Shown in pieces: positions 26,083 to 58,022 of a stretch of DNA of 64,000 nt (position 1 is the stretch's first letter; each line of letters opens with the position of its first letter). The notes beneath the pieces were generated by a model. It was not told the origin of the DNA. It was given only the letters and a program-made list of their open reading frames with translations, and ran no database searches. Source of the DNA: a virus; IMG/VR virus record IMGVR_UViG_3300025132_000021, positions 96,343 through 160,342 of that record; one strand, 5' to 3'. A program made the translations under genes and the position numbers.

Positions 26083-26838
26083 ATGGTTGCCAATGTTGCC
26101 ATTCAAATCTCTGCGTGGTGGGGTGAGATTGATGATGACTCCACAGCCTTTACTTCATTTTCTGGTCAAAGAATTATGTTGGCTCAAAACTTTGATATTA
26201 AGAAATTGATGACTATGACTAATCAACAAGCCTTAAAACATTTTGTAGTTAATGTAGATATGAGAGGGCCTCAACAGATTTATGCTGATAAAGAGGGTTA
26301 TGCAAAAGCCATAGACGGAGTTCGTAATAAACCCATCAAAAGTCTTAGTTATAGTCCCAGTTCAATCACTGATGGAAATAATGATTGGCTCTGGATTGAT
26401 TTATACCCAGTAGAGTTCTTGGCTCACGAGGACACCGAATCAGAGTTTGCGATGTTTAACGAATCACTTGGGGATGATGAGAGCCTAAATTACTTTAACT
26501 TTTGCTATAATCTAAAAGAATGGCTCACTGCATGGAATAGACAACTCCAGTTCACAGAGGGTTCAAAAAAAATAATCTCCAAACTATCAGCAGGCCGTAT
26601 GCCTCTTTTTGAAAGTTTTAAGACAATACCTGATTATGTAGGACCTCCGGGAATAAATGTAGATGAAACTTACACAAATCTCATAGATAATCCTGAATAT
26701 CAAAGATTAAAAGATTTTGGCATTTATTTGATGTCTTCCGAAGCAGCCACAGATTTTAGAAGGCTTCTGGGTAATTTAACTAATTCTATTCTAAATTGGA
26801 CACAAACTTCGGTTGATGACCTGCTAAACTTTAAGTAG
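26083..26838 (+). CDS. hypothetical protein with LNW C-terminal tag
   Basis: CTTAAATA at 26054; ends ILNWTQTSVDDLLNFK. Confidence 0.7.
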   Translation: MVANVAIQISAWWGEIDDDSTAFTSFSGQRIMLAQNFDIKKLMTMTNQQALKHFVVNVDMRGPQQIYADKEGYAKAIDGVRNKPIKSLSYSPSSITDGNNDWLWIDLYPVEFLAHEDTESEFAMFNESLGDDESLNYFNFCYNLKEWLTAWNRQLQFTEGSKKIISKLSAGRMPLFESFKTIPDYVGPPGINVDETYTNLIDNPEYQRLKDFGIYLMSSEAATDFRRLLGNLTNSILNWTQTSVDDLLNFK

Positions 26839-26859
26839 TCGTGCGACAGCATGGTAACT

Positions 26860-27657
26860 ATGGAACCTTGGCGTAAGCACTTTGAAATGTTTTCAGCAGA
26901 TGCTCTGGAGGACATGAAAACTTATTCTGACAATACTCACGAAGAAAGGGAATGGATGTGTTATGTCTACGAAAAGGATGGTCGTTATGAACTTGGCTCG
27001 CCGTCGCTTGGCACAGAATCTCGTATTGAGGTTAATCCAGTCGCTAAGGCAGCGCAAGATGCTGGCAAAGGTTTGACTAATCGTATGTGGACTATCCACG
27101 GACACCCTCTAAAAGATGGTAAGATTTACACAGGTCGCCAATACTTTTCCTCTACGGATATTATCAATGAGTTCCTAAAAACTCGTGATACCAACGAACC
27201 CGTAGTTCAATGGATTACTTATCCTCATCAACAATTAGATACTAATACTGGTAAGAAAGTTATTCACAACCGATGCCGAACTTTAGTGTTTCCATCTCGT
27301 GATGTAGTTATCAAGGCCATGCAAGTTAGCAATCCAGATGTAGATGTTATGGCAATTACCAGAGAATCTGGACAAAACCGCAACGCTGCCGATGGTAGTT
27401 TAGTAAATGATTCAGGTATTGATTGGTTCGCTTTCCAAGAAGCACTGGGAGATATGGGCTACATGGGCATTATGGATTTAGAAGGACCAGCCGCAGGAGC
27501 CAAGCCTTTCCGTAGTGAATCTATGTTTGTGAAAAAGTTTGGAATGCTTTCTGTGATTGCACTCGGAATTGCAGGATTCGCATACTTGAGCAAAACTCAA
27601 GGATTTGGTGCAGAAGTTGAAGTCGTTGATGGCTTAGGCGAATGGCACGAAATCTGA
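26860..27657 (+). CDS. JAB/MPN-like metallopeptidase domain protein with C-terminal TM
   Basis: EREW...IHGHP...FSSTD matches E..HxH..SxxD; TTTAAGTA at 26830 (-30). Confidence 0.55.
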   Translation: MEPWRKHFEMFSADALEDMKTYSDNTHEEREWMCYVYEKDGRYELGSPSLGTESRIEVNPVAKAAQDAGKGLTNRMWTIHGHPLKDGKIYTGRQYFSSTDIINEFLKTRDTNEPVVQWITYPHQQLDTNTGKKVIHNRCRTLVFPSRDVVIKAMQVSNPDVDVMAITRESGQNRNAADGSLVNDSGIDWFAFQEALGDMGYMGIMDLEGPAAGAKPFRSESMFVKKFGMLSVIALGIAGFAYLSKTQGFGAEVEVVDGLGEWHEI

Positions 27658-27666
27658 TGTGAGTTT

Positions 27667-29289
27667 ATGTTTGGTAAGATTGTGGGTGCAGGACAAGCAG
27701 GATTCGTTTTTGAGAATCCCAAAAATCCCGATAGTTATTACAAAATTGTGGCTTTACCAGAACAACCTTTAGAAAAAATGCCTTTGCGTTCCACGAAAGC
27801 CCGATTAGGTGCTATCAATCAAAATCAAGCAGAACTTTTCTTTAGACTCTACCAAGAAGACTTGGACATCCCACAACTTCCAAAAGTTTTTGCTTTCTAC
27901 ACTGGGACAGTAACGCCGAAACTGCGCCGAAACTTATTGAACGCTGCTTCTGAAGATGAGGAACTTGAAAGTTTAGTTCGTGGTCTCAAAACTAATCAAA
28001 AAATTGCTGTGTGGGAAATGGAACGCATACCTTGTTTGAGCGAAAATGATTTCTGCGAGCGTTATCCTACTCGTCAGCCTCATAATAATCCAGATTATCA
28101 AAACTTATTGGATACTATGTTAGACCTTGGTTTTGTAGTTCGTGATGTTGCCAATCCTGAAAACTTTGGTTATCGTGAAAATGGAACACAAGTTTTCTAC
28201 GACCCTATTGTGGCTCCTTGGCCTGTGCAAGAGGTAACAAAAGTTTCAGACCCGAACCGTTATGCTCGTTTCGTAGCCAGTTTTGGTCCCGACCAGATTA
28301 GCACCACTCGTCGTGCGATTCAATCTGGAGATTATTTCGGTTGGTATCATAGTGGAGGAGTTATGGAGGCAGAAATGTCCCATGAACAGGATGCTGACAT
28401 AGTTAATGAATACCGATATGCAACATTTATTCTAATTGCTCGCACGCCAAGTGGTAATGATTACCAAGTTTCACCTTTAAGCGAACATAATTCGGCTTGG
28501 AGAACCGCTTTTGGCAAGAAACCACACGGCGTAGAAGAATTAGTTGAAGAAATTGCTTTCATATTTGATAATCTGGGGACAGCACCTAATCCCTATGCCA
28601 TTGATATTTTCCTTTTAGTTCCTGATGGAAGGCTGAAGTTAGCAGGTGTAATCAAATATGGTAAAGTAGAAGCCAGTTATCCTTACGAGAACCTTGCTAA
28701 ACTTTTGAATCGTCGTCTGGACTTTGAGCGTTCTGCTGAAACTTTGCAGGACAACTATTTCCCAGAAGGAACTATTTACAATCCTAATCAATCAGGAGCC
28801 ATAAACTGGATTAAACCTGCACCTTATTTAGACATCTGGGCTTCTTTTTATGGTGATATTGTAGAGTGGCTACAAGAAAATGTTTATGAAATGGATGATG
28901 ATGGCGATTCAGCCATAGAAATGTGGGAACGATTCTCACCTGACTTAAAACCACTTATGGAGTATGTTCAACAAAACGATTTAGACCCCGATGATATTTT
29001 ACCAGAAATCATGGAGGAATCTCCATTGAACAGACCTTATTCAACAGTTTCTAAACCCCAACTAATCAAATCCAGAAATGCAGGATTTTTGAACTTCATG
29101 CGTAGAGCCACTTTATCCGTTCCATGTGCTGAATGTTATGGTAAAGGATACATCAATCGCACAGCAGGAGAATACGATGAACACGAGTGGACAGAAGAGT
29201 GCGAAACTTGTAATGAAGAAGGAGAAGTAGATATTGATAACACTGATAATCGCTATTATAGACAGCATAAGGAGGACTACCCACTATGA
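27667..29289 (+). CDS. protein-kinase-like N-terminal domain in a mosaic protein; C-terminal CxxCxGxG zinc finger
   Basis: GAGQAGFVF, YYKIV, RDVANPENFG catalytic loop, FYDP; CAECYGKG...CETCNEEG. Confidence 0.6.
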   Translation: MFGKIVGAGQAGFVFENPKNPDSYYKIVALPEQPLEKMPLRSTKARLGAINQNQAELFFRLYQEDLDIPQLPKVFAFYTGTVTPKLRRNLLNAASEDEELESLVRGLKTNQKIAVWEMERIPCLSENDFCERYPTRQPHNNPDYQNLLDTMLDLGFVVRDVANPENFGYRENGTQVFYDPIVAPWPVQEVTKVSDPNRYARFVASFGPDQISTTRRAIQSGDYFGWYHSGGVMEAEMSHEQDADIVNEYRYATFILIARTPSGNDYQVSPLSEHNSAWRTAFGKKPHGVEELVEEIAFIFDNLGTAPNPYAIDIFLLVPDGRLKLAGVIKYGKVEASYPYENLAKLLNRRLDFERSAETLQDNYFPEGTIYNPNQSGAINWIKPAPYLDIWASFYGDIVEWLQENVYEMDDDGDSAIEMWERFSPDLKPLMEYVQQNDLDPDDILPEIMEESPLNRPYSTVSKPQLIKSRNAGFLNFMRRATLSVPCAECYGKGYINRTAGEYDEHEWTEECETCNEEGEVDIDNTDNRYYRQHKEDYPL

Positions 29290-30458
29290 AAACAATACCA
29301 AACTTTCCGTTTCCTGAACCCGACTTAGCACCCACTGGCAAAGCCCTTGATGTAGAGGCTCGTAAGCCTCGTCAAATGTTTAACCCTGCTAATGGTTCAG
29401 AATGGTGGTGTCTCAACAAATATGACGGTGTTCGTTCTTTATCAGGATATTGGGCTGTCAATGATTACTTAGCCCAGACCAGTCGCAAAGACAACATCCA
29501 AGATGGATATAACACTGAATACCCCCGTGAATGTCTACAAGAGGTTTATCGTTATCTTCGTGATGCAGGAGTCTGGAAACAAGTAGGCGAGGGCGTAGGG
29601 CCTGTTATTGATGGTGAGATGTATGATGACCGAGTAACTGCCGACCCTGACTATTTTGATACCTTAAGTGGTATGGTTCGTAAATCTTCAGGAACATCAC
29701 CGGGCTTTGAAGGTATTTACTATTTGATATTTGATTGCTATTGGCCTGATGACCCAGACTTAGTATATCAAGACCGCATGACTCGTTTAATTGCTGATAT
29801 GCAATATGCTTTGGGATTGTTAGAACCCACTTGGCCGAATCAAAGAAAAAATAAATTGCGTTTCTGTTCTATTCCCACTTCTGGTGAATCTTATTTTCTA
29901 TACAATGACCCTGCACTTGCACCTGCATACAGCACCACTCCCGATACCTTAGACCTTAGCACTCCGTCAGAATCTTTTGTTCCCAAAGACCACGCCGCTA
30001 TTAACATTTTGAATCCTGATTATTGGAAGATTTTAGGTATAGGAACTTCTTCTTATACGGATACTGCCGAGTTATTGGTTTATTATTTAGAATCTGCTGA
30101 AAGTTTAGGTTTAGAAGGAATTATGGTTCGTAGTAATCACAGAGGATATATCGGTGGACGAGCAGGAACAAATCTTTACAAGTTAAAATCTTTTGAAGAT
30201 GACGAGTTTGAAATTATTGGCTACAATGGAGTAATGTCTGAAGCAGGAATACTTTTGAATCGTCCAGTATGGAAATGTATTACTAAATCTGGAGAAGAGT
30301 TCTTAGCCAGCGCACCGGGAACTCATGCTTCACAAGAGCAACAATGGGAAGACCGAGACAAGATTGTTGGCAAGATGCTGACTGTCAAATATCAAAACCT
30401 TTCGGCCAGAGGTGTCCCAAGATTCCCCAAAGGTGTAGCCATTCGTGATTACGAGTAA
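29286..30458 (+). CDS. lig: ATP-dependent DNA ligase
   Basis: KYDGVR, IDGE, IFD, EGIMVR, KLK, OB-fold ending VKYQ..GVPRFP. Confidence 0.9.
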   Translation: MKTIPNFPFPEPDLAPTGKALDVEARKPRQMFNPANGSEWWCLNKYDGVRSLSGYWAVNDYLAQTSRKDNIQDGYNTEYPRECLQEVYRYLRDAGVWKQVGEGVGPVIDGEMYDDRVTADPDYFDTLSGMVRKSSGTSPGFEGIYYLIFDCYWPDDPDLVYQDRMTRLIADMQYALGLLEPTWPNQRKNKLRFCSIPTSGESYFLYNDPALAPAYSTTPDTLDLSTPSESFVPKDHAAINILNPDYWKILGIGTSSYTDTAELLVYYLESAESLGLEGIMVRSNHRGYIGGRAGTNLYKLKSFEDDEFEIIGYNGVMSEAGILLNRPVWKCITKSGEEFLASAPGTHASQEQQWEDRDKIVGKMLTVKYQNLSARGVPRFPKGVAIRDYE

Positions 30459-30495
30459 AATCCCAATTGGATATTTGAAAATATCGGGGTTTTTT
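30457..30495 (+). terminator. hairpin plus T-run between convergent genes
   Basis: AAAATCCC..GATATT-TGAA-AATATC-GGGGTTTTTT. Confidence 0.55.
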
Positions 30496-30522
30496 GAGCC
30501 TTGTCAAAATTGAAACTTATGC

Positions 30523-31068
30523 TTATTCCGATTCCCAAGCCATCTTAATAGCATCAAACACCGCATCCGAATCAGAGGCCATAATGTTTAACCAAATATA
30601 GTCCTCTGGAATCTGCGAAACTTCAGTTTCACTTGGGTCTCCTCGGTTATCCCAATGAACTTCCCAATCTGGATAAGTTCTTTCCAAACGCTCACGCTGT
30701 AAATCTTCTTCAATATGAAGTCTCACGATTCGCCAGCCCTGTGCTGATAACTTTTCTGCTTCATTGATAAATCTCACATCATCTACAATTGCTACATCAT
30801 ATTTATCTGCTGCAAAATCTTCGTCAATGGTGCGATTCATATAATCAATCCAAACATCAGGTCGGATTTCTCGCATCTTCATTCCAATTTGCTGTAAAAG
30901 TTTTCTATCCTTTTCTACCATTCCAAAAAGATTACTACCAATTTCTTTAACTTTGGTTGCTAATGAATGACGCTCTACTCGGTAGTCCAGTGAAATTAAC
31001 TCCTCTTGCATTTTGTTTGCTAATGTGGATTTACCACTTGCCATCTGCCCTGCAATCGCAATCTTCAT
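30523..31068 (-). CDS. deoxynucleotide monophosphate kinase-like P-loop protein
   Basis: GQMASGKS, RKLLQQIG, DDVRFINE, SET. Confidence 0.8.
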   Translation of the reverse strand: MKIAIAGQMASGKSTLANKMQEELISLDYRVERHSLATKVKEIGSNLFGMVEKDRKLLQQIGMKMREIRPDVWIDYMNRTIDEDFAADKYDVAIVDDVRFINEAEKLSAQGWRIVRLHIEEDLQRERLERTYPDWEVHWDNRGDPSETEVSQIPEDYIWLNIMASDSDAVFDAIKMAWESE

Positions 31069-34204: not shown

Positions 34205-34265
34205 GTTATAACTAAGGCGAAGCACCTACATAAACATTAAGTATCAGCGCAACCCAGAATCTATT

Positions 34266-34355
34266 ATGAACACTCCAAAAGTCTTGAATTGGATTAGGTT
34301 TCCTTATGATTACCACGAAATGCAGTTTTTCACATTCGCAGAATTGTTTGGTTAA
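34266..34355 (+). CDS. 29-aa micropeptide MNTPKVLNWIRFPYDYHEMQFFTFAELFG (LNW motif)
   Basis: ATTAAGTA at 34236 exactly -30; KVLNWxxFP matches the end of 50815..51339. Confidence 0.6.
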   Translation: MNTPKVLNWIRFPYDYHEMQFFTFAELFG

Positions 34356-36803: not shown

Positions 36804-37292
36804 TCAGAAAAGTTCTTCATCTTCTGGGTTAGACTCTGCATCTGGCTCGGACTCTCCTGTGCCTTGATTAGCAAACATGAAATCCATACGAGGCATCATA
36901 CTCAATGTCCCATCTTTTACAAAGCGAACTAAGTTTTCACCGATAATGGCTTCAGTAGATTCTGCTACATCTGCCAATTTATTCCAATCGCCAAACCATG
37001 CGACATCGTGGCGTGTAATTGGAGTATCTTGATACATCATCACCATTTTCTTATGTTTCAACCCATGACTTTCAGCCACAGCACGGAAAAAGAAATCAGT
37101 TTGAGTATTGTCGGCAGATTCATTAGGGTCTGCAAACATAAAGACCATTACGAAACCATCAGGAATAGTTTCATTTTCTTCTAATTGTTTCATTACATCT
37201 CGCAAATCGTGAGATTCTGGTTGATGCTCGCAACTATCCGTAGCGCAGCAATCGTGTTCTTCTTCTTTTTCATTATCTTTACTAATACTCAT
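36804..37292 (-). CDS. hypothetical acidic protein
   Basis: ORF track; ATGA overlap. Confidence 0.65.
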   Translation of the reverse strand: MSISKDNEKEEEHDCCATDSCEHQPESHDLRDVMKQLEENETIPDGFVMVFMFADPNESADNTQTDFFFRAVAESHGLKHKKMVMMYQDTPITRHDVAWFGDWNKLADVAESTEAIIGENLVRFVKDGTLSMMPRMDFMFANQGTGESEPDAESNPEDEELF

Positions 37293-37870
37293 TGTCTTTC
37301 ACCTAACATTTGTTCAATCTGGTCATCAGGAACGCCCTTGCTCTTAAGATAAGTAGCAAAGTCAAACCCTTCCCAGTTTTTAATCACATCTAACATCGTT
37401 TGAAAATCTCCAAACAATTGTTCAGTCGGAACTTTTTGATTCTTCTGCACCACTTCTTTTTGACCCGGAATCTTATAATGACTTACATTGACAAAGTATT
37501 TCTTATCAATCATAGAAGAAACTACTGCACGAGCCAAGTCTGCATTCTTTTGTGAATCCAGATTAACACGAACCTTTTCTTGAGAGTGTGGTAAAAGTTC
37601 TGCTTGATGTTGAACAATAGCATTCAGAAATAAGTCTGGGTTGCTATCCAACCAACCTTTAATTTCTCCATCAGTAGTTCCACGCTGCTTCAAAAACTCT
37701 GTAAAGTTTCCTGCTGTGCTAACCACGAAACGCAAAGGATTATCTAAAATGTTAAACATGACGAAATAAACATCATCTCGGTCAGCCGTGTTTCGCATCA
37801 CGACTTCAGAAGTTACGACAACTTCCATATCATTGTTCAAGCCAAGTTGAACCTTGTTAATCTTGTCCAT
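37289..37870 (-). CDS. hypothetical protein
   Basis: TTTAAGTA at 37900 gives start 37870. Confidence 0.7.
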   Translation of the reverse strand: MDKINKVQLGLNNDMEVVVTSEVVMRNTADRDDVYFVMFNILDNPLRFVVSTAGNFTEFLKQRGTTDGEIKGWLDSNPDLFLNAIVQHQAELLPHSQEKVRVNLDSQKNADLARAVVSSMIDKKYFVNVSHYKIPGQKEVVQKNQKVPTEQLFGDFQTMLDVIKNWEGFDFATYLKSKGVPDDQIEQMLGERQ

Positions 37871-37891
37871 ACTGTTATTATGCCCCATGAC

Positions 37892-48289: not shown

Positions 48290-48892
48290 TTAGAGTCCAA
48301 ACAGGTTTCGCAACGATTCCGTCGTTTTCCAATTTAGTAGCGATTCAAAGTTTGACAAACTAAACTCTAAAAATATAGGTAAATTAGATTTTGTGCCAGC
48401 AGTTCCTACGATAACCTCATTGATGAACTTACTCCAAGGTGTATAACTCCAGTCATCATCAGTATCAAACCACGACCCACCGACCACCTTAAAATCTTTA
48501 GGTAATTCTTCAATAGGTTTCTCTCCTGAAAGTTGCTCAATTTCAGTAAAACCTACTTGTAATAAATCTCCTACCTTCCATTCGGCTTGATTACTCAATG
48601 TGGCTAATCCTTTGAAGTTAGTCAAACACAAAGGCGTTCCTTCTAACACAATGTATGCTTGACCAGTGCGAGTCATAATAACTCCATTTCCCTCTACCCA
48701 CGCTTCCAGACAATCTACAAAGTAAGGATTTTCACTTACCCACGCATTAAAATCTTCGGCATCGGCTGTGCTATCGTGGAGTCCCTCTGTGAACCAAGCC
48801 TCGTGAGCATCACCAAACTTTTCCCAAGCAGCCGTAGTTGGGTCGCCTTTGTATTTCAAATAAAAATCTGCTACATCTTGAAAAGTTACCAT
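48290..48892 (-). CDS. hypothetical protein with LNW C-terminal tag
   Basis: ends LLNWKTTESLRNLFGL. Confidence 0.7.
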   Translation of the reverse strand: MVTFQDVADFYLKYKGDPTTAAWEKFGDAHEAWFTEGLHDSTADAEDFNAWVSENPYFVDCLEAWVEGNGVIMTRTGQAYIVLEGTPLCLTNFKGLATLSNQAEWKVGDLLQVGFTEIEQLSGEKPIEELPKDFKVVGGSWFDTDDDWSYTPWSKFINEVIVGTAGTKSNLPIFLEFSLSNFESLLNWKTTESLRNLFGL

Positions 48893-48896
48893 CTTA

Positions 48897-49181
48897 TCAC
48901 CTGCGGTCGTTTTGTAATTGTTTCTTTAGTCCCGGAATGTTCCAAAAGTTTGCTACTTGGTCGGCAGTTATTTCGTCTGAAACAGGCGACTTTGGTGCGC
49001 CCATGTTTTTATTTCCTGCAACTTTTTGTTGGCCTCGTCCTGCATTGGCTTGTTCTTGCATATCTCTAACTATATCTTCCGCAGTAAGTGGAGGAGGTGG
49101 AGTTACCGTAGAACTCAAAAGTTTGTTTCTTTCTGCTGCAATTGCTTTCAAAATATCTTCTTGACTTGTCATTTTAATCAC
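48897..49181 (-). CDS. hypothetical protein
   Basis: ORF track. Confidence 0.55.
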   Translation of the reverse strand: MIKMTSQEDILKAIAAERNKLLSSTVTPPPPLTAEDIVRDMQEQANAGRGQQKVAGNKNMGAPKSPVSDEITADQVANFWNIPGLKKQLQNDRR

Positions 49182-49783
49182 CTTAATAAAAACTCTATGT
49201 TAGCATTAGACCAGTTCAAAGTTTTTCTCATTATCTCTTCTTGACTCATAGTTGTTTTCCAAACATTTAATCCAGTAGAGCAATTTGCCCAGACCACAGC
49301 AATATCGTCTTGTAGTTCGCCAGACCAATCATCGCCCCAATCTAACATTTGAGCGCAAACTTTTTCATCCATTTGGACTAAGTTTTTCCCAAACCAATTA
49401 CAAGTTTGTGTTTTTACTACATTGTTAGACTGTGTGAAATTACCAGTTATCAGCCAAGAAGAACTTTCCCACCTTTTTTGTTTTGTATCATACCCAATAT
49501 ACCACCAAACATAGGGGAAAACGCTATCAGAATCTTTAGACCACATTAGTAGTATTCCATTACCCCTGCCAATCCAAGGGAAATAAGTATTCAGCCACAA
49601 CTGTTCAAACTCCGTCCAAGTCTGAGGAGGCTCATTATCTACATCCCATCTTTCTACCAATTCCATATTCACTTGGTCAGAGAAGGCCATAGTTTTAAGC
49701 ATAGTTGAATCTATATCATCGTCGCCATTTATTTCGTTAAGAAATACCTGAATATCAATAGGATTCATAGTAACAGTAATCAT
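49178..49783 (-). CDS. Trp-rich hypothetical protein with LNW C-terminal tag
   Basis: ends TLNWSNANIEFLLR. Confidence 0.7.
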   Translation of the reverse strand: MITVTMNPIDIQVFLNEINGDDDIDSTMLKTMAFSDQVNMELVERWDVDNEPPQTWTEFEQLWLNTYFPWIGRGNGILLMWSKDSDSVFPYVWWYIGYDTKQKRWESSSWLITGNFTQSNNVVKTQTCNWFGKNLVQMDEKVCAQMLDWGDDWSGELQDDIAVVWANCSTGLNVWKTTMSQEEIMRKTLNWSNANIEFLLR

Positions 49784-49799: not shown

Positions 49800-50753
49800 T
49801 TAAAGATTCCACATAGGCATTCCTCTTTGCCACACTTCAGTAGCAGGGTGAATCCCCATTTCAGGAAAATCTGGACGCTCGTATTCGTTTTTGGTTGTCC
49901 ATGGGTGAATAGTAGTTATGATTTCCCAAAGACTTACTTCAAAGTTTTCTTCTACCAGATTTTCTAAGGCTGTTCTTTCTTCTGCATCTAAAGGCCAAAC
50001 CACTTGTCCAGTTTTTGGATGAATACTATATGGACAACGAATCACACCTTGTCTTTGAATCGGTGCTAAGTCTAAGTAGTTAATAGGAGTTGAGGCTGCT
50101 TCTTCATAAATAGTTTCAGTAACCGTGCGATAAAGTTTTGCTTGGTAGCGCAAAGGGTCATTCTGCGTCGCAAAGGTTTTCTTCCAATGAGGACTAATTT
50201 TAGAAACCAAACTTTCGGCTTCTTCAGCGTGCAACCAAACATGGAAACCTTTGGAACCTGAAAACACAATTTGTGGGTTGAGACCGTGTTTAGATTCCAA
50301 AAACTTTGCGATGTCATTAGCCACGCCGAAAGCAGCACCCGGATGATTAGGATAATCTACATCCCAAACTAAATCTTTTCCCTGATAAATTGTCTCAAAG
50401 TTTATTTGTAGTTCCTTACAGCCTTCTCGTGTCAAGGTTTTCTTCCAAAAGTTCCTAAAATCTTTCATAGCATCTTTGTTAAAACCTGAAACGCCTCGCA
50501 CTCGCAACGGAGGAGGTAATCTTAACATTGTCCACTCTACACGATTTGTTCCCACGAACAAACTTATTCTACGCTCTGGGTGTCCCACAAGTTTCAAAGT
50601 TTTGCCCACCGAATCTGATTTGTGAAATCTTTGCTGTCTGAAACCAAAATCTTCTGCACGGTCGTCGGAACGATGAATCGTAAGTTTTACTTCTCTGGGT
50701 CTGGCAAAGTTGGCAATTGCCCCTTGAACTGCTTGTGTATCTAACCAACCCAT
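49800..50753 (-). CDS. archaeo-eukaryotic primase catalytic subunit (PriS-like)
   Basis: DLVWDVD, VFSGSKGFHVW, D..IRCPYSIHPKTG; TTTATGTA at 50783 (-30). Confidence 0.85.
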   Translation of the reverse strand: MGWLDTQAVQGAIANFARPREVKLTIHRSDDRAEDFGFRQQRFHKSDSVGKTLKLVGHPERRISLFVGTNRVEWTMLRLPPPLRVRGVSGFNKDAMKDFRNFWKKTLTREGCKELQINFETIYQGKDLVWDVDYPNHPGAAFGVANDIAKFLESKHGLNPQIVFSGSKGFHVWLHAEEAESLVSKISPHWKKTFATQNDPLRYQAKLYRTVTETIYEEAASTPINYLDLAPIQRQGVIRCPYSIHPKTGQVVWPLDAEERTALENLVEENFEVSLWEIITTIHPWTTKNEYERPDFPEMGIHPATEVWQRGMPMWNL

Positions 50754-50814
50754 AGTATCTTATCAGCGTATCACTTACATAAACATTAAGTATCAGGGTC
50801 TATTTATGATAACT

Positions 50815-51339
50815 ATGATTCCTTATGTCCAATCAAAGAAAGAGTTGATTCCTACTTTGAAGGCATGGCATCTCTTATCTTATGTGGCACTTTGGCCTGA
50901 AACTTCCAACCCAACTATTCAACACAACATTGATGAAATACCTTACTCTGTTTATGCAGACACAGATGGTTTTATGGCTTTTTACGAGGCTGCAAAAGAA
51001 GGAGAACCTACTTCCGACAATGTTTGGTCAGTCGTAGATACCGAAAATAAAATTACGGTTTGGTTCATTCCCACACTGGGAGAATCAACTATGATAGGAC
51101 CACTAAGATACAGTTATCTTTCTGGAACTAAAACTTTGAGTTATCAGCATTATATTACAGATTCAGATTTACAAGAAGGTGCAGAATTGTTTCAAGTAGA
51201 ATTAGATACTACCATGTTTCTATATGACAATGGTGAGAAATTACCAAAATGGTCTTTTTATCGTTTTGAACCTCATGGCATTTACCTACCATTCAAAGTT
51301 CTAAATTGGAGGGAGTTCCCAGATGAAATACTTTACTAA
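50815..51339 (+). CDS. hypothetical protein with LNW C-terminal tag
   Basis: ATTAAGTA at 50785 (-30); ends KVLNWREFPDEILY. Confidence 0.7.
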   Translation: MIPYVQSKKELIPTLKAWHLLSYVALWPETSNPTIQHNIDEIPYSVYADTDGFMAFYEAAKEGEPTSDNVWSVVDTENKITVWFIPTLGESTMIGPLRYSYLSGTKTLSYQHYITDSDLQEGAELFQVELDTTMFLYDNGEKLPKWSFYRFEPHGIYLPFKVLNWREFPDEILY

Positions 51340-51559
51340 TTGTTCTCAATGTGGACAAGAACTTGATGAAACTGTATCAGCCACTTTATATCAAGAAATG
51401 ATGTCTGATAAAAAACTCGGAAAGTGGTGGCGAGCCAACCTATGTATTCCTTGTAATATCACCAAATCTACTGAAATGCTAAAATTAGAACAGCAACTTA
51501 ACCAAGTTTTTGGCTGGCAGTGTTTGAATTGGGAGAAGTTTCCTCACGAATTGCTTTAA
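51323..51559 (+). CDS. small Zn-finger protein with LNW C-terminal tag
   Basis: CSQC..CIPC; ends CLNWEKFPHELL. Confidence 0.65.
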   Translation: MKYFTNCSQCGQELDETVSATLYQEMMSDKKLGKWWRANLCIPCNITKSTEMLKLEQQLNQVFGWQCLNWEKFPHELL

Positions 51560-52191: not shown

Positions 52192-52274
52192 TCTTCGTAA
52201 ATGTATTCTTCAGTTTCAATTCTAATCTTTAGTGTATCCATTATTTCACCCTCGTTGTTTCTCATATAAAAACT

Positions 52275-53126
52275 TTACTCCATATAAGTAAAAATATGGG
52301 CTACCACATCTACTGTCCAGCCGTTGCCAATCATCTTATATCTTTCATACTTGCTCACACCTTCAGTATAATTTTCAGGTAAAGTTTGTAATCGTTCTGC
52401 TTCTACTGGACTCAAAGCCTCAATCTTGTCTTTGTGATAGTCTCCAAAGTTGTGAGGTAAAACTTTCGCTGGCCTACCATCGCCATTGACTCCTTTTGAA
52501 TAACTTGCAGTAATACAATTAAACTTATCAGTTGCCGTGCGAACAATCTGCCGAGGTTTTCCACCAGAAGGTTTTCTGGTTGTCGCAATCTCGTATCTGG
52601 GGTCGTCTAACAAAGACTTGCCTGTAATTCCTTTGTCAGCAGGTTGCTCAACATTCGGAATGTTAGTCCAATATAACCTTAATCGGTTTTGACCCGATAC
52701 TAAAGCCGAGTTAATTTTAATCGGCTCGCAACCCAGCAACTTACTAATCTCTTCTTCTACGGCTTTTGCCATTTTGACATTCTCCAGCATCCAGTATTTT
52801 GGTTTAATTTCTTTTAGCAATCTAACAAAGTCAAAAAACAACTTGCTGCGTTCATCATCAAAGTTTAGTTTCTTACCAATCATGCTAAAACCCTGACAAG
52901 GACTTCCACCAATCAATAAATCTATATCATCTGGTAAATCTTTGGATTCAAGTTTGGTAATGTCTCCAAGTTGAATAGTGTTAGGATAATTCTTTTGAGC
53001 AATTTGCATGGCGGGTTCATCAATTTCACTTGCATAATAAGTTTCGTATTCTATACCAGCACGCTCAAGGGCAATTTGCCCACAACTCATACCATCAAAA
53101 GTTCCTAATACACCTCGTAATTTCAT
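52275..53126 (-). CDS. DNA (cytosine-5) methyltransferase 1
   Basis: FDGMSCG, GGSPCQGFS, ENV, QNRLR, ERLQ, GNGW. Confidence 0.95.
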   Translation of the reverse strand: MKLRGVLGTFDGMSCGQIALERAGIEYETYYASEIDEPAMQIAQKNYPNTIQLGDITKLESKDLPDDIDLLIGGSPCQGFSMIGKKLNFDDERSKLFFDFVRLLKEIKPKYWMLENVKMAKAVEEEISKLLGCEPIKINSALVSGQNRLRLYWTNIPNVEQPADKGITGKSLLDDPRYEIATTRKPSGGKPRQIVRTATDKFNCITASYSKGVNGDGRPAKVLPHNFGDYHKDKIEALSPVEAERLQTLPENYTEGVSKYERYKMIGNGWTVDVVAHIFTYME

Positions 53127-53128
53127 TT

Positions 53129-54019
53129 CTATTCCTCCATATAACTAAAGATGTGAGCAATAACTTTTACCGTCCAACCATTTCCAACAGCACGGCGACG
53201 CTGCGTAGGTGCAATTCCTTCTGTGTAATTATCTGGTAAAGTTTGTAGTCTTTCGGCCTCAACATTAGTCAAGTTTCGCCAATCGTCTGCATGAACGCCA
53301 TAAGCATCGGGATAACGACCGTGAGGTAAGCGACAAATTACTACATCTTTACTTACCGTTGTCAAACATTGAGTTTTATCTGGATTCTTTTTTACTTGGA
53401 TACATTGAGTAATAGGTAAAGTTTTATCGTAGTCTTTCCGAACTCCTGCGGAGTTCAATCTTCGCCCGACGATGTGAGCAGAACTCCAGTCTTTATCTGT
53501 TTCCAGAATCTCGGAAAGTTTTACACCGAGGTCATCTGGTTGTTCCACTCCGGGAATGTTGGTCCAGTAAAGTCTCTTACGCATTTGTGCTGAAACTTTT
53601 TGGGAATCAATAAAGATGGGTTCAACTCCGAGTTCTGCTGTAATGGCATCTTGAATATCTTGTTGCATTAAAACATTTTCCAACAGCCAATACTTGGGTT
53701 TGTAATGTCTAATAATATCTAAGAACTCAAAGAAAAGTTTGCTACGGTCATCATCAAAGTTCAATCTTTTACCTGCTACCGAAAAACCTTGACAGGGACT
53801 ACCACCTATAATCAAATCTATATTTTCTAAATCCCAAGTTTTCCAATCCGTGATATTTCCAAGTTGAATAGTGTTGGGATAATTCTTTTGAGTAATCTTA
53901 ATGCAATTTTTATCAATCTCGCTGGCGTAATACTTTTCGTATTCTACTCCTGCTTCGGCCAAAGCCACTTGTCCACAACTTATTCCATCAAACAATCCTA
54001 AAGCATTTCTAATTTTCAT
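53129..54019 (-). CDS. DNA (cytosine-5) methyltransferase 2
   Basis: same motifs; ATGA overlap with the upstream paralogue. Confidence 0.95.
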   Translation of the reverse strand: MKIRNALGLFDGISCGQVALAEAGVEYEKYYASEIDKNCIKITQKNYPNTIQLGNITDWKTWDLENIDLIIGGSPCQGFSVAGKRLNFDDDRSKLFFEFLDIIRHYKPKYWLLENVLMQQDIQDAITAELGVEPIFIDSQKVSAQMRKRLYWTNIPGVEQPDDLGVKLSEILETDKDWSSAHIVGRRLNSAGVRKDYDKTLPITQCIQVKKNPDKTQCLTTVSKDVVICRLPHGRYPDAYGVHADDWRNLTNVEAERLQTLPDNYTEGIAPTQRRRAVGNGWTVKVIAHIFSYMEE

Positions 54020-54915
54020 TTGTATTCCTCCATAAATCCAAAGATATGGGCTATCACATCTACTGTCCAACCATTACCTATGGCTTTGTATCTTTGAGTA
54101 TTACTTAGATTATCAGTATAGCCATCAGGCAAAGTTTGTAATCTTTCACATTCCAGAGGTGTAAGTTTTCTCCAAGTGGTTTCACTCGTAGAAACCTTTG
54201 ATTCACGATTTCCACCCATGCTGGTTGTTAAGGTCGGAGATTTCCCATCGGGGTGATAAACTCTTTTCAAAGATTGAATACCATTTAAGTTTGCAGTTCC
54301 AATATGACACAGCCCTCTGGGAGAAAGTTTTCCTTCTTTATCTTTGAAGTATTCTTCCAAGTCACCTCCTCTGATTTCGGCTTCAGGTAAAGTTTCCAAA
54401 ATATCTTTGAGATAAATCCCTTTGTCATCAGGTAAAGTTTCAATAGGAATGTTAGTCCAATACAACCTGTCCCTACTTTGTGCCGAGACCAAACCTGAAT
54501 TGATTAGCACAGGCTCTACACCAAGTTCGGCACTTATCGCATCTTGAACATCTTTCTTCATTTTGACATTTTCTAACAACCAGTATTTTGGTTGATAATG
54601 TTTAATGATTTCAACAAACACAAAGAATAACTTGCTACGCTCGTCATCAAAGTTCAATCTTTGACCCGCCATTGAAAATCCTTGACACGGACTTCCCCCG
54701 ATAATCAAATCTATATCTTCTAAATCCCACGATTTCCAGTCATTTATGTTTCCTAATTGTATAGTATTAGGAAAGTTCTTTTGTGTTGCACTTATTGGGT
54801 ATTTGTCAATTTCGCTGGCATAGTATTTGTTAAACTTAACACCTGCTCGGTGTAGGGCTAATTGCCCACAACTGATGCCGTCAAATAATCCCAGTGCATT
54901 GTTAATCTGTATCAT
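54016..54915 (-). CDS. DNA (cytosine-5) methyltransferase 3
   Basis: same motifs; start approximate. Confidence 0.95.
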   Translation of the reverse strand: MIQINNALGLFDGISCGQLALHRAGVKFNKYYASEIDKYPISATQKNFPNTIQLGNINDWKSWDLEDIDLIIGGSPCQGFSMAGQRLNFDDERSKLFFVFVEIIKHYQPKYWLLENVKMKKDVQDAISAELGVEPVLINSGLVSAQSRDRLYWTNIPIETLPDDKGIYLKDILETLPEAEIRGGDLEEYFKDKEGKLSPRGLCHIGTANLNGIQSLKRVYHPDGKSPTLTTSMGGNRESKVSTSETTWRKLTPLECERLQTLPDGYTDNLSNTQRYKAIGNGWTVDVIAHIFGFMEEYK

Positions 54916-55017
54916 CGGCATCAGCCTCAACTTCAACCAATTCCTTAGAAATTAGTGTCTTTGTGCCATCTGCGTTCTTTCTCATCTTAACTCGCCACAT
55001 CTTTTCGCTCATGTCAA

Positions 55018-55356
55018 TCACTCCAAAGCCAAATAAGGGTTTGATGCTTTCATTTCATCCATCTGTGCCTTCAAGCGGTCATACTTTGCTTGTTGGGCTT
55101 CATCAATTTGTTGCTTGGCACATTCCAACACATCAGCAACGGTGTTGTCTTCATGGTCAATCTCAACCACGATATAACGCTTCATATCCATTTCTGCATC
55201 ATAGGAATGGCAAGAGTTTAGAATAATAGTTTGCACCAAACGGTGTGCTGGCATTACTTGTTGCCACCCACAGCCATTTAGGTATTCTTCAGCATACGCA
55301 AGTGCTTCTTCTTTTGTTTCCCAAATTGATACGATATGATTTCCACGGTAGGTCAT
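55018..55356 (-). CDS. hypothetical protein
   Basis: TTTATATG at 55386 gives start 55356 and removes the overlap with the upstream ORF. Confidence 0.65.
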   Translation of the reverse strand: MTYRGNHIVSIWETKEEALAYAEEYLNGCGWQQVMPAHRLVQTIILNSCHSYDAEMDMKRYIVVEIDHEDNTVADVLECAKQQIDEAQQAKYDRLKAQMDEMKASNPYLALE

Positions 55357-55396
55357 AATTCTACTAAGTAGAACCACCCATATAAAGTTTTGGCTC

Positions 55397-55843
55397 CTAT
55401 TGAACCCAGTCTTGTTCTTCTGCGTCCCATTCCCAGCGTTCTTTACCGTAGGTATCGTAAGCAAACAATTGTGCATACTCCCCATCACCACCATAACTGA
55501 TGGTGTAAATCCATTCCTCGCCTATATCGTGAATACCCAGAGGAATCAATTGAATACGGTTATCATCAAAAGCAGGAGATTTCCATTCACGGTGTCCTGT
55601 TGCTGGGTCACGGATATAAGTTTTCAATTGAGCAACCGCACTGGCAGCCAAACTGCCCATTCCCAAATAAGATTCTCTATCACGAATGTCTTTCATACCT
55701 ACTACTGGACCTCGCATGACAATATCTTTTAGTTCTTCACCCATAACTGTTAGGTAGCCATCAAATTGCCGATAAATCCGACAAAGTTCTTGACCTTCTT
55801 CATTCTCAACTACTGTTATACTACGAGTTCCCATACTTATCAA
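55397..55843 (-). CDS. conserved viral hypothetical protein (MGTRS...YRQFDGY type)
   Basis: N-terminal pattern familiar from small phage proteins; function unknown. Confidence 0.6.
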   Translation of the reverse strand: MISMGTRSITVVENEEGQELCRIYRQFDGYLTVMGEELKDIVMRGPVVGMKDIRDRESYLGMGSLAASAVAQLKTYIRDPATGHREWKSPAFDDNRIQLIPLGIHDIGEEWIYTISYGGDGEYAQLFAYDTYGKERWEWDAEEQDWVQ

Positions 55844-56229
55844 CTCTCAAAAATAAACATATCGCCACTTACATATTCAGTAGCCTTGTGAATGGCTCTA
55901 AGCAAATCAATAAAGTGGTCGCTCACTCCCGTAGGTATTTTTAACTCGTATTCTGCATTTCCACCATAAGGTCTTTCAATCACGAACACGGTTTCCTCGC
56001 CCATATCATAGGCAGCCAACCATTCACTTAGATATTCATGTAGCGAACCTGTGTCAAAAATAAATAATCCGGGTGCGCCCGCATCACGACCCACATAGAC
56101 TTCTGCCATTTCATCCATTTCAGGCAATCCCATAATTTCGCCAATTTCGGAAGGTTGGTCGCCAAAAACATACTTGTAGAAATGTCGTTCCGAGCCACCC
56201 TCTGATAAGTAATTCAAGTATCGTCCCAT
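55840..56229 (-). CDS. hypothetical protein
   Basis: ORF track. Confidence 0.6.
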   Translation of the reverse strand: MGRYLNYLSEGGSERHFYKYVFGDQPSEIGEIMGLPEMDEMAEVYVGRDAGAPGLFIFDTGSLHEYLSEWLAAYDMGEETVFVIERPYGGNAEYELKIPTGVSDHFIDLLRAIHKATEYVSGDMFIFES

Positions 56230-56232
56230 TTT

Positions 56233-57558
56233 TTAGTCCTCCATCTCTCTTAGTTTCTTAGCGGCTTCCATTGAGGCTCTTTGCATCTCCTCTACCGCAG
56301 GTCGTCCCAACAAGACACCTTCACGCCACAAATCAAAATCGTCAAACTCTCTGGAGGCTTGCATTAGCATACGAGCATCTGGATTCAACAAAGGCGACAT
56401 GGCTTCTGCTGAACCACACATAGAACAAATCTCGGAAACATTATCCCAACGGCTCATAGCACCGGGATACTTACCTTCGTGTTCTGCATTCGGGATTGGG
56501 CCTTCACAAATTGGACATAGATGCTTGTTCATCACTATACCGTAGGTATCGCTACTATAAGAAGTTTTCGCTTCAGCCTCCCAAGATGATTCTTTGTGTG
56601 GTGCTACATTTTGGTTATACTCCCAAGCCTTACGAGGAGTTGTTCGGGCATAAACTTTTTTCCCACCCAACATATATCTTTGGTGAGCAAGGTATCCATC
56701 AGTAAAAACATCTCCAAATAACTTTTTAGTTAATCTTCCATGAGGAATAAACCAATTGCCTTTTTGACTATAACGAGAATTGTATTGAGCAGGCTGTAAT
56801 TCCAAATACCACAAAAACGGTCGCAGTGGGTTAGGGCTAAGTTCCATATAGTCCATGATAATAGATGAATCTTTCCAATTCAAAAGTTTCATGTTAGGAA
56901 TAGTTTGAAAGTCACGGATTTCTACCAGCCGACTAACTTTTGGTGTTGTTAATTCGTTAATTTCTGTCCAAGTTAAACCAGAGCGATTATGTGTTAAGTT
57001 TTTGTGGGCAATTTCTAACAAATCAGTTATCCACGACTTTGCCATTTGCTTTCTAACCATAGTCACCACATAATAAGGTGGCTTGAATACTGACCAGTCA
57101 TAACCTGCTGTGGCATAACATTCTCTCAAGTCAATTGCTACCAACACAAAGTCTACTTTGGGTTGCACCAGAACTACAAAACTTCCAAACTTTAAGTCTT
57201 TATGCCGTCCCGTTTTAGAAAACCAAGATTTAGCAGACGATTGAGAAGGAATACTAAGGTAAGGTATTTTGTTCCATAATATGTGGGCTATCTCTTGTGG
57301 ATAAATCCTTGCATCACGGAGTTTTCTTTTGTCAAAGTATTTTTCTTCTACGATGTCTCCAAAGTATTCATAGACAGGGTAGGTTTCTGACAAAACTTTT
57401 GCTAAGTCCTGCCCACCGAATTGTAAGTCTACCTTCCAAAGTTCTGGATGTTCAGGTTCATCAAAATCTTTTAGAAAATCATACCAATCTTCGGTTTGCC
57501 AATTGCCCCAATCTTTCAGTGGGTATCCAGATTTGGCAGCCGAATCAAAACTTACCAT
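56233..57558 (-). CDS. hypothetical mosaic protein with internal LNW and C-terminal Zn-binding module
   Basis: KLLNWKD; CPIC..SRWDN..ICSMCG. Confidence 0.7.
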   Translation of the reverse strand: MVSFDSAAKSGYPLKDWGNWQTEDWYDFLKDFDEPEHPELWKVDLQFGGQDLAKVLSETYPVYEYFGDIVEEKYFDKRKLRDARIYPQEIAHILWNKIPYLSIPSQSSAKSWFSKTGRHKDLKFGSFVVLVQPKVDFVLVAIDLRECYATAGYDWSVFKPPYYVVTMVRKQMAKSWITDLLEIAHKNLTHNRSGLTWTEINELTTPKVSRLVEIRDFQTIPNMKLLNWKDSSIIMDYMELSPNPLRPFLWYLELQPAQYNSRYSQKGNWFIPHGRLTKKLFGDVFTDGYLAHQRYMLGGKKVYARTTPRKAWEYNQNVAPHKESSWEAEAKTSYSSDTYGIVMNKHLCPICEGPIPNAEHEGKYPGAMSRWDNVSEICSMCGSAEAMSPLLNPDARMLMQASREFDDFDLWREGVLLGRPAVEEMQRASMEAAKKLREMED

Positions 57559-58022
57559 TATTCCACTCCCACCAAACTTTCAATATCAGAAACTAACCAA
57601 TTAAGAATCTTATAGTCTGGGAAGTCTAATACTAAGAGTAGTTCATCAACTAACAAAGCCGTGTCTAAAAGTTCTTGCATCTCTCTCATTTCCGAAGAAG
57701 CAACTTTTTTTCCGAAGACCAACCCCACAAGGAAAGTGTGTTTTCCTTTATGTTTTCCTTTAATGGCTGTCGTGCCAGTGTTAATCAAAAGAAATTGTGA
57801 ATCTTTATCTCCAATATGATAGATTCCGGGATTATTGAAGGCAAATTGTTTATCCACCGAGAGCGTAGTCCAGTTGTTTGGTATTTGTGTGAAAAAATCT
57901 TTGTATTTATCTTCGTCGGTATTATCAATTAGATTAAGATAAAACTCATTGACTTTATCTACCAGAGCAGGTCTTGAACGACTTGGTGTTGTAATGACCT
58001 TGTAAGCCTCTGATAATTCCAT
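57558..58022 (-). CDS. hypothetical protein with LNW C-terminal tag
   Basis: ends KILNWLVSDIESLVGVE. Confidence 0.7.
   Translation of the reverse strand: MELSEAYKVITTPSRSRPALVDKVNEFYLNLIDNTDEDKYKDFFTQIPNNWTTLSVDKQFAFNNPGIYHIGDKDSQFLLINTGTTAIKGKHKGKHTFLVGLVFGKKVASSEMREMQELLDTALLVDELLLVLDFPDYKILNWLVSDIESLVGVE

What the first reader, a model, noticed from the sequence alone, without database searches (positions are those of the whole stretch)
26791..57605. Shared LNW C-terminal tag on unrelated proteins, plus a micropeptide that is mostly the tag
Seen: six otherwise dissimilar proteins end in LNW followed by 8-12 residues with a hydrophobic pair: ILNWTQTSVDDLLNFK (26791), LLNWKTTESLRNLFGL (48329), TLNWSNANIEFLLR (49211), VLNWREFPDEILY (51301), CLNWEKFPHELL (51524) and ILNWLVSDIESLVGVE (57597). 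A 29-aa ORF with its own promoter reads MNTPKVLNWIRFP (34284), and internal copies occur at 56875 and 14204. Codons vary synonymously (CTA/TTG/CTT, AAT/AAC), so selection is on the peptide. None of the recognisable replication enzymes ends this way. Inference: an undescribed addressing system, i.e. a docking, packaging, export or degradation signal read by one receptor, with the micropeptide as competitor or regulator.
Basis: partly seen in the sequence, partly recalled or inferred. Interest (0 to 1): 0.8.

Follow-up and report, generated by a model that had tools for sequence, protein, structure and literature searches.

The report
Shared LNW tail on viral proteins
A sub-lineage of large, undescribed marine archaeal viruses ends seven or eight of its fast-changing, otherwise unrelated accessory proteins with the same short peptide (hydrophobic-Leu-Asn-Trp plus 8-14 residues). 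It looks like a docking label for one common partner, but that partner has not been found.

Summary
In the 160-kb genome that holds the window, LNW is the most over-represented tripeptide in protein C-termini (6-7 seen, 0.26 expected). A 166-kb relative (G001) repeats this with 8 seen and 0.30 expected. A six-frame profile scan finds exactly 8 instances in each genome. Fourteen of the 16 end 0-3 residues before a stop.

The tails are better conserved than the protein bodies in all 8 orthologue or paralogue pairs, and all six Leu codons are used. Carriers are soluble, acidic and lineage-specific: 2 of 14 are shared between the two genomes, against 274 of 392 other proteins. Bodies show no profile similarity once the tails are cut off, apart from one shared 43-residue module in A251 and F154.

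The two "internal copies" are at noise level. The 29-residue micro-ORF is a true motif instance and is intact in one close relative.

More distant relatives lack the tag. An IMG/VR-wide DNA pattern scan found it only in this clade.

No receptor was identified, so the "addressing system" reading is plausible but unproven. This scan has already reported analogous terminal tags in other archaeal viruses, also without a receptor.

The parts
26083..26838 (+). Carrier A251 (251 aa, ORFan). Tail ILNWTQTSVDDLLNFK at 26788-26835. Its C-terminal ~79 aa start with a module shared with F154.
48290..48892 (-). Carrier B200 (200 aa, ORFan). Tail LLNWKTTESLRNLFGL at 48293-48340.
   Evidence: Orthologues are 73-78% identical and the tail is almost unchanged.
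49178..49783 (-). Carrier C201 (201 aa, ORFan, Trp-rich). Tail TLNWSNANIEFLLR at 49181-49222. Lies downstream of an AEP primase-like gene.
   Evidence: (10 homologues down to 48% identity keep LNWSNANxExLLG)
50806..51339 (+). Carrier D177 (177 aa, ORFan). Class 2 tail VLNWREFPDEILY at 51298-51336.
   Evidence: Orthologues are 37% identical in the body and 69-77% in the tail (VMNWRDFPDGILN).
51323..51559 (+). Carrier E78 (78 aa, CxxC...CxxC zinc-ribbon-like). Class 2 tail CLNWEKFPHELL at 51521-51556.
   Evidence: A6: cysteines and LNW..FP..LL are invariant at 53-55% identity
57558..58022 (-). Carrier F154 (154 aa). Tail ILNWLVSDIESLVGVE at 57561-57608. A relative (L001 263-838) has an extra paralogue with tail ILNWLMSDYTELVEVE.
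   Evidence: paralogue: body 22% identical, tail 69%
34266..34355 (+). 29-aa micro-ORF MNTPKVLNWIRFPYDYHEMQFFTFAELFG. It carries the class 2 motif near its N-terminus and ends in ELFG.
   Evidence: Scores 19.3 bits against a tail profile built without it, while shuffled proteomes reach at most 12.3. Intact at the same length in L010.
34228..34247 (+). Promoter-like element ACATAAACATTAAGTATCAG in front of the micro-ORF. It is an exact copy of the element in front of D177.
50777..50796 (+). The same promoter-like element in front of D177, in the divergent gap next to the primase-like gene.
56233..57558 (-). 441-aa protein with an internal LLNW at 56875. Not supported as a motif instance.
   Evidence: 8.8 bits, within the range reached by shuffles
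13889..16597 (-). 902-aa PolX-type protein with an internal LLNW at 14204. Not supported as a motif instance.
   Evidence: not among hits of 11 bits or more

Best explanation
The LNW tail is a short linear docking motif. Its form is a hydrophobic residue, then Leu-Asn-Trp, then 8-14 residues with a hydrophobic pair.
- Class 1: h-LNW-(3-5 polar residues)-h-[DE]-x-[LF]-h.
- Class 2: h-LNW-x-x-F-P-x-x-h-h.

It is specific to one sub-lineage of large PolD-encoding marine archaeal viruses. It is carried by seven or eight soluble, acidic, rapidly turning-over accessory proteins per genome, and by one conserved core protein encoded next to the HerA-type packaging ATPase gene.

Shown: the tag is non-random, C-terminal, selected at the peptide level, better conserved than the bodies, sits on bodies without detectable homology, and is confined to this clade.

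Inferred: the tail is exposed and brings all carriers to one common partner, viral or host. The tags spread partly by exchange or duplication of 3' gene ends, as seen in the A-F module and the D-E-micro-ORF group.
For: - Enrichment and position in G000, replicated in G001.
- Six-frame profile scan: 8 + 8 hits of 14.5 bits or more, all in real ORFs. Fourteen end 0-3 residues before the stop. Nothing else reaches 11 bits, and shuffles reach at most 12.3.
- Tail identity exceeds body identity in 8 of 8 pairs, for example D177 0.37 against 0.69-0.77 and the F paralogue 0.22 against 0.69.
- Synonymous codon variety.
- No body similarity by blastp or by hhalign with the tails removed (all probabilities under 1%). 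E78 has a CxxC...CxxC pair suggestive of a zinc ribbon; the other carriers show no such paired motif.
- Carriers are lineage-specific: 2 of 14 shared, against 274 of 392 other proteins (Fisher 4e-5).
- Carriers have no transmembrane segment and are more acidic than size-matched proteins.
- The core carrier G279 keeps h-[IL]-N-[WY]-x-x-[ST]-G-h-x-x-h-h down to 21-24% identity.
- The tag is absent from more distant relatives G002, G003 and G005, and from the first 80 of 110 IMG/VR pattern hits outside this clade.
Against: - No partner was identified, and no structural evidence shows that the tail is exposed. The two AlphaFold2 models were poor (pLDDT 56 and 48, tails under 40).
- With each family left out of the profile, its own tails score only 2-15 bits. 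What the families truly share is h-LNW, the position, and a weak hydrophobic pattern. The two classes might therefore not bind the same site.
- Partial homology exists (A-F module; D, E and the micro-ORF are neighbours or share a promoter). Some tails are therefore related by descent rather than acquired independently.
- Hydrophobic residues at -5/-4, -1 and 0 before NW fit a helix that could pack on the carrier's own body.
Confidence: 0.5

Rival explanations
1. Cryptic multigene family. The carriers are fast-diverging paralogues of one or a few ancestral genes. Their bodies have drifted beyond recognition while a functionally constrained C-terminal element persisted. This does not exclude a docking role for that element.
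For: - The F154 paralogue in L001 already has only 22% body identity against 69% tail identity.
- A251 and F154 share a 43-residue module.
- Carriers cluster (B-C, D-E, F plus its paralogue) and are similar in size and charge.
Against: - hhalign of family profiles without tails gives probabilities under 1%.
- E78 has a CxxC...CxxC pair suggestive of a zinc ribbon, and G279 is a conserved 279-aa core protein.
- Lengths range from 78 to 279 aa.
Confidence: 0.2
2. Intramolecular or self-association element. The tail is a C-terminal amphipathic helix that caps the carrier's own fold or drives homo-oligomerisation. It has been spread by exchange of 3' gene ends, and there is no common receptor.
For: - AlphaFold2 draws both tails as helices running through LNW, at low confidence.
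- The upstream hydrophobic spacing is helical, and the helical moment is slightly raised (0.35 against 0.28, p 0.025).
Against: - A purely structural cap would not be expected to keep the same Leu-Asn-Trp on unrelated bodies, or to stay restricted to lineage-specific accessory proteins.
- Class 2 has a conserved Pro in the middle, and the micro-ORF has no body to cap.
Confidence: 0.15
3. Turnover or processing signal. The tail is a degron or recognition site for a viral or host protease. One candidate is the gene directly after A251, which the first reader calls a JAB/MPN enzyme. The signal would time the removal or maturation of accessory proteins.
For: - A251 is followed 12 bases later by that gene.
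- Carriers are accessory proteins that might be needed only transiently.
Against: - Pfam gave no JAB/MPN match for that gene.
- The tails have no conserved terminal residue or cleavage-type motif.
- The conserved core carrier G279 is unlikely to be a degradation target.
Confidence: 0.1
4. Chance, or a DNA-level signal (terminator, promoter or recombination site) that happens to translate as LNW.
For: None beyond the shortness of the core. Some tails overlap the next gene's start or promoter (D/E overlap; the micro-ORF end overlaps a TTTAAGTA box).
Against: - Six Leu codons and two Asn codons are used.
- Enrichment p values are 3e-7 and 1e-9 in two genomes.
- Conservation is at the amino-acid level, with nucleotide change in orthologues.
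Confidence: 0.02

Closest known systems
PIP box and other PCNA/clamp-binding C-terminal peptides (Q-x-x-[LIM]-x-x-[FY]-[FY]; own knowledge)
   Same: A short peptide at the extreme C-terminus of unrelated proteins, with a hydrophobic pair at i, i+3/i+4 spacing. The virus encodes its own PCNA, and several carriers flank a primase-like gene.
   Different: - There is no conserved Gln and no aromatic pair.
- The invariant part (LNW) has no PIP counterpart.
- The viral DP2 ends in a different, PIP-like QQTLFEKL.
- None of the recognisable replication enzymes carries LNW.
Capsid-targeting sequence of phage T4 internal proteins, and encapsulin cargo-loading peptides (own knowledge)
   Same: One short terminal tag on unrelated proteins, read by one shell or scaffold receptor. 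Encapsulin tags are C-terminal. The only conserved carrier (G279) is encoded beside the packaging ATPase gene.
   Different: - No evidence that the carriers are in the particle.
- No cleavage site.
- The T4 CTS is N-terminal.
- The capsid here is reported as jelly-roll type with an inner membrane (earlier notes, not tested by me).
Terminal tags reported earlier by this scan in other archaeal viruses (e1-831089 [IK][TN]NW[KR]x[VI]L[KN]; e1-5346240 A-F-x-x-[AG]-W-x-x-[LVI]-K; e1-3426696)
   Same: The same architecture: a Trp-containing 10-16-residue peptide at the termini of fast-changing, unrelated viral proteins, uniform within a lineage, with the receptor unknown.
   Different: A different sequence, a different virus lineage and probably a different host. 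These are AI notes and were not checked here.
Poxvirus ankyrin/PRANC (F-box-like) terminal-region families (own knowledge)
   Same: Variable, lineage-specific accessory proteins that share a conserved C-terminal adaptor element linking them to one hub.
   Different: PRANC is a folded domain of about 30-50 residues with a known host partner (Skp1). Here the element is shorter and the partner is unknown.

Membership tests
PIP-box PCNA clients | Consensus Q-x-x-[LIVM]-x-x-[FYW]-[FYW] at or near the C-terminus | tested here: not met
   Only A251 (QTSVDDLL) has Gln at the right spacing, and none has an aromatic pair. In class 2, F-P occupies that place.
PIP-box PCNA clients | Binds the hydrophobic pocket under the interdomain connecting loop of PCNA | not testable with these tools
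Capsid or encapsulin cargo-targeting peptides | The same terminal peptide on otherwise unrelated proteins of one virus or compartment | tested here: met
Capsid or encapsulin cargo-targeting peptides | Carriers are found inside the particle, and the tag binds a shell or scaffold protein (and is often removed by the maturation protease) | not testable with these tools
No virion proteome and no cultured virus.
Archaeal ribosomal stalk (aP1/aP0) C-terminal tail mimics | Extreme C-terminus h-x-x-L-[FL]-G | tested here: not met
   This holds only for B200 (LRNLFGL), F154 (IESLVGVE), the micro-ORF (AELFG) and C201 orthologues (LEILLG). It is absent from A, D, E, G279 and all G001 tails.
Pex14-type W-x-x-x-[FY] motif and receptor | Trp and an aromatic residue four positions apart, with a receptor carrying a complete Pex14_N three-helix domain | tested here: not met
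   Class 2 has W-x-x-F (three apart). The 199-aa protein matches only profile positions 28-46 of Pex14_N (24.5 bits), and no PDB sequence matches it.
Single paralogous protein family | Detectable similarity of the bodies once the shared tail is removed | tested here: not met
   blastp and hhalign without tails (probabilities under 1%). The exception is the A251/F154 43-residue module. A fold-level test was inconclusive because the models were poor.

The most novel reading that the evidence does not exclude
The LNW tail is an address label read by one virus-encoded receptor in the assembly and packaging module, the natural partner of the conserved protein G279 encoded beside the HerA-type ATPase gene. 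In one sub-lineage, fast-evolving acidic accessory proteins have copied G279's tail so that they are loaded into the particle, or gathered at the assembly site, and delivered to the next host cell. The 29-residue peptide would then be a tag-only competitor or a bivalent adaptor (LNW motif plus a stalk-like ELFG end).
Probability: 0.12. Interest if true: 0.8.

Novelty: new variant of a known kind. Interest (0 to 1): 0.5.

Why it matters
Terminal address peptides such as PIP boxes, the T4 capsid-targeting sequence and encapsulin cargo tags are among the few ways to assign a function to ORFan viral proteins. Here one peptide links about 8 of some 230 proteins per genome. Nearly all of them have no detectable homologue outside a narrow clade, in a virus group for which I found no description.

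Finding the single receptor would place all carriers in one pathway at once. It would also give a portable tag for archaeal-virus cell biology. The recurrence of Trp-containing terminal tags in several unrelated archaeal virus lineages, noted earlier in this scan, suggests a general strategy. Without the receptor, the finding remains descriptive.

Tried and rejected
- **Complex prediction.** One job combined the viral PCNA (A5), the 199-aa HeH/Pex14_N-like protein (A7) and E78 (A6) as partner. It gave no verdict (score 0.00, controls not run). This is neither for nor against binding.
- **AlphaFold2 models.** Models of the G279 family (A3) and the C201 family (A1) reached pLDDT 56 and 48. They were too poor for fold comparison, so no fold search was run.
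- **Family libraries.** Pfam and PHROGs gave nothing for any carrier in G000 or G001. The protein atlas gave chance-level scores for G279.
- **Database-wide tail-profile search.** Not run, because members score only 17-26 bits, below what 1.8 billion sequences would require.
- **Host-mimicry test** (do Poseidoniales proteins end in LNW tails?). Not possible.
- **Large ENA contigs of relatives** could not be opened by handle. Distant G279 homologues sit on contigs of about 1.4 kb.
- **Phylogenetic-profile filter for a viral receptor.** Proteins shared by G000 and G001 but absent from the LNW-free relatives still number about 30, which is not discriminating.
- **Stalk-tail link.** h-x-x-L-h-G C-termini are enriched in G000 (6 against 1.0) but not in G001, so this was rejected as a general explanation.
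- **N-glycosylation sequon (N-W-[ST]).** Present in only about half of the tails, and the carriers have no signal peptide or transmembrane segment. Rejected.
- **IMG/VR pattern hits outside the clade.** These were one recurring identical 31-codon frame (ILNWLRFPNLFL*) in about 15 related contigs, plus scattered short frames. Treated as chance.
Full report
**Setting.** The window is the last 64 kb of a single 160,342-bp virus record with inverted terminal repeats. Earlier notes of this scan describe it as a large, undescribed marine archaeal virus with PolD, its own PCNA, jelly-roll capsid genes and a Get3 homologue. I confirmed the following:
- the PCNA;
- a PolX-type domain in the 902-aa protein;
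- an MCM-like protein, a ligase and an XPD-like helicase;
- an AEP primase-like gene;
- a Holliday-junction resolvase and an endonuclease VII;
- three C5 methyltransferases and a TFB in syntenic relatives.

No close phage record exists. The described Poseidoniales viruses I read about are different: 87-kb tailed viruses.

- LNW is expected 3.4 times overall and 0.26 times in the last 20 residues. It is seen 6 times there, or 7 with the 78-aa ORF that my caller dropped.
- It is the most enriched C-terminal tripeptide (Poisson 3e-7). No tripeptide in 400 shuffled proteomes was as extreme.
- Six of 12 LNW occurrences have 8-14 residues after the Trp, where 2.7% is expected.
- All six Leu codons and both Asn codons occur.

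A seventh C-terminal carrier, here called G279, lies outside the window at genome 65946-66785 and ends VLNWTITGCDDLIRANL.

**Independent replication.** A TFB search led to IMGVR_UViG_3300046163_000066 (G001, 166,176 bp, ITRs), which I fetched whole.
- It shares 139 of 234 proteins with G000, at a median 52% identity.
- LNW is again the top C-terminal tripeptide: 8 seen, 0.30 expected, 1e-9.
- A profile built from the tails, run over all six frames of both genomes, finds exactly 8 + 8 hits of 14.5 bits or more and nothing else above 11 bits. All hits are in long ORFs except the micro-ORF. Fourteen end 0-3 residues before the stop.
- Twenty shuffled double proteomes never exceed 12.3 bits.

**Anatomy of the motif.** There are two sub-forms.
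- Class 2 is h-LNW-x-x-F-P-x-x-h-h-x: D177, E78, the micro-ORF and five G001 proteins.
- Class 1 is h-LNW, then 3-5 polar residues, then h-[DE]-x-[LF]-h, often followed by Gly: A, B, C, F, G279 and three G001 proteins.

Position -1 is hydrophobic in 11 of 14 tails, and position -2 is almost never hydrophobic. Positions -4 and -5 are often hydrophobic, which is a helical spacing. The helical moment from the Trp onward is slightly above that of other C-termini.

One important limit: when a family is left out of the profile, its own tails score only 2-15 bits. What is truly common to all families is therefore h-LNW, the distance to the C-terminus and a weak hydrophobic pair. The statistical case rests on the enrichment and position tests, not on a long shared sequence.

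**Conservation.**
- The C201 family (10 sequences, down to 48% identity) keeps LNWSNANxExLLG.
- Syntenic metagenome contigs supply orthologues of B, C, D, E and F. In all 8 orthologue or paralogue pairs the tail is more conserved than the body. The clearest cases are D177 (body 0.37, tail 0.69-0.77) and an extra F154 paralogue in L001 (body 0.22, tail 0.69).
- G279 is a core protein. Its family keeps P-x-T-x-H-[IV]-LNW-x-x-TGCD...L down to 33% identity. Homologues at 21-24% identity still end h-[IL]-N-[WY]-x-x-[ST]-G-h-x-x-h-h.

**Are the carriers related?**
- blastp of all carriers against the genome finds nothing significant outside the tails.
- hhalign of five family profiles with the tails cut off gives probabilities under 1% for every pair.
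- E78 has a CxxC...CxxC pair suggestive of a zinc ribbon.
- There is partial homology. A251 residues 173-212 match F154 residues 1-43 (42% identity).
- D and E are adjacent genes, and the micro-ORF sits behind an exact copy of D177's promoter-like element.

Some tails are therefore related by descent through exchange of gene ends. A fold-level test failed: both AlphaFold2 models were poor. None of the carriers matches Pfam or PHROGs.

**Who carries the tag?** The carriers are soluble (no hydrophobic 19-mer above 1.24) and acidic: -6.7 charges per 100 residues, against -2.9 for size-matched proteins, p 0.04.

Above all, they are lineage-specific. Only G279 is a shared orthologue with the C-terminal tag. 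Counting both genomes, 2 of 14 carriers have a counterpart in the other genome, against 274 of 392 other proteins (Fisher 4e-5).

No recognisable replication enzyme ends this way. DP2 ends in a PIP-like QQTLFEKL.

Gene positions:
- C201 and B200 follow an AEP primase-like gene, and D/E are divergent from it.
Pfam did not confirm this.

**Range.** Relatives whose PCNA is only 26-31% identical (G002 150 kb, G003 123 kb, G005 56 kb, fetched whole) have no LNW tails; the best profile score is 5.4 bits.
- G002's G279 homologue ends GLFGNYPERGAAHLLNAL.
- A handful of small G002 proteins end x-NW plus 8-13 residues, which is only weakly above expectation.
- A degenerate DNA pattern for the class 2 tail, run over IMG/VR, returned 110 stretches, about the chance number. 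Among the 80 listed, only the G000-like contig and G001 have it at the end of a long ORF.

The tag is thus a recent, clade-specific elaboration, possibly modelled on the ancient tail of G279. However, G279's tail scores only 4.5-6.6 bits against a profile of the other families, so that link is weak.

**The micro-ORF (34266-34355).** It scores 19.3 bits against a tail profile that did not include it. It lies 20 bases behind a promoter-like box identical to D177's.

It is intact, with the same length, in a close relative (L010). There, all but one of the substitutions fall in about 12 central codons, nearly all non-synonymous, while MNTPKVLNWIRFPY and ELFG are unchanged. Because the unchanged parts overlap promoter-like DNA, and a 12-codon patch stays open by chance about half the time, translation is likely but not proven. 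A competitor or regulator role is untested.

**The internal copies.** The sites at 56875 and 14204 are at noise level. The six LNW occurrences that are not C-terminal tails fit the chance expectation of 3.4.

**Mechanism.** I favour a docking tag for one common partner (0.5). It best explains four things together:
- the same invariant tripeptide at a fixed distance from the end;
- its presence on bodies with no detectable similarity;
- tail conservation that exceeds body conservation;
- restriction to fast-turning-over accessory proteins plus one core protein.

Rivals are a cryptic paralogous family (0.2, not exclusive of docking), a self-packing or oligomerising helix (0.15), a degron or processing signal (0.1), and chance or a DNA signal (0.02).

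The partner is unknown. Gene neighbourhood gives only weak pointers to the packaging module, the replisome or the gene after A251.

**Comparison with known systems.** The tag works like PIP boxes, T4/encapsulin cargo tags or poxvirus PRANC adaptors, but it meets the sequence definition of none of them (see the membership table).

This scan has reported analogous Trp-containing terminal tags in other archaeal viruses, also without a receptor. The kind is therefore not new, but this motif and its clade are. I found no paper that describes it.

Noticed in passing
window 37289-37888 (-): A 199-aa protein with two copies of an F-x-x-[FY]-L-K-x-x-G-x-x-x-x-[EQ]-I-x-x-x-L motif. The second copy matches the last 19 positions of Pfam Pex14_N (24.5 bits). 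The protein also holds an internal, conserved V-I-K-N-W-E-G-F-D-F. It is 58% identical in G001, and a similar C-terminus (KKWEGFDL) is present in G002.
   Followed up: partly
window 34228-34247 and 50777-50796: An exact 20-base duplicate, ACATAAACATTAAGTATCAG. Both copies sit in short divergent intergenic gaps (helicase/micro-ORF and primase/D177). It looks like a bidirectional promoter cassette.
   Followed up: partly
window 34302-34340 against L010: A patch of about 14 substitutions in roughly 12 codons of the micro-ORF, nearly all non-synonymous, flanked by otherwise almost identical DNA on both sides. This could be gene conversion or diversifying selection.
   Followed up: partly
L001 263-838 (+): A relative carries an extra 191-aa F154 paralogue with its own LNW tail. 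It is inserted between the tail-anchored 219-aa protein gene and the F154 orthologue.
   Followed up: yes
genome-wide C-termini of G000 (e.g. window 48290-48892, 57558-58022, 37289-37888; genome 9296-9907): C-termini of the form h-x-x-[LFM]-h-G-x(0-3) are enriched in G000 (6 seen, 1.0 expected, 0 of 300 shuffles). They include the stalk-tail mimic noted by an earlier agent. The enrichment does not hold in G001 (3 against 1.1).
   Followed up: partly
protein P0026 (118 aa): A GIY-YIG-like N-terminus fused to the last 48 residues of a G279 homologue, including the LNW tail. This could be a homing endonuclease inserted in the G279 gene of some relative, or a gene-call artefact.
   Followed up: no
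window 49800-50753 (-): A 317-aa AEP primase/PrimPol-like protein, just below the Pfam cut-off (26.2 bits against 26.8). It heads the operon that contains C201 and B200.
   Followed up: partly
G002 (IMGVR_UViG_3300027845_000169) 17093-17650, 100030-100362, 112235-112423: In this LNW-free relative, three small proteins end F-G-N-W..., T-N-W... and K-N-W... plus 8-11 residues, and the G279 homologue has F-G-N-Y. This may be a weaker or older 'NW' dialect. A fourth, 13 residues from its end, brings the count to 4 against about 1.2 expected, so the evidence is thin.
   Followed up: partly
L078, L086, L091 and about 12 more IMG/VR loci: An identical 31-codon frame ending ILNWLRFPNLFL* recurs in about 15 contigs, mostly of sample 3300045988. 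It is one conserved DNA stretch of an unrelated virus group and was treated as a chance match.
   Followed up: no
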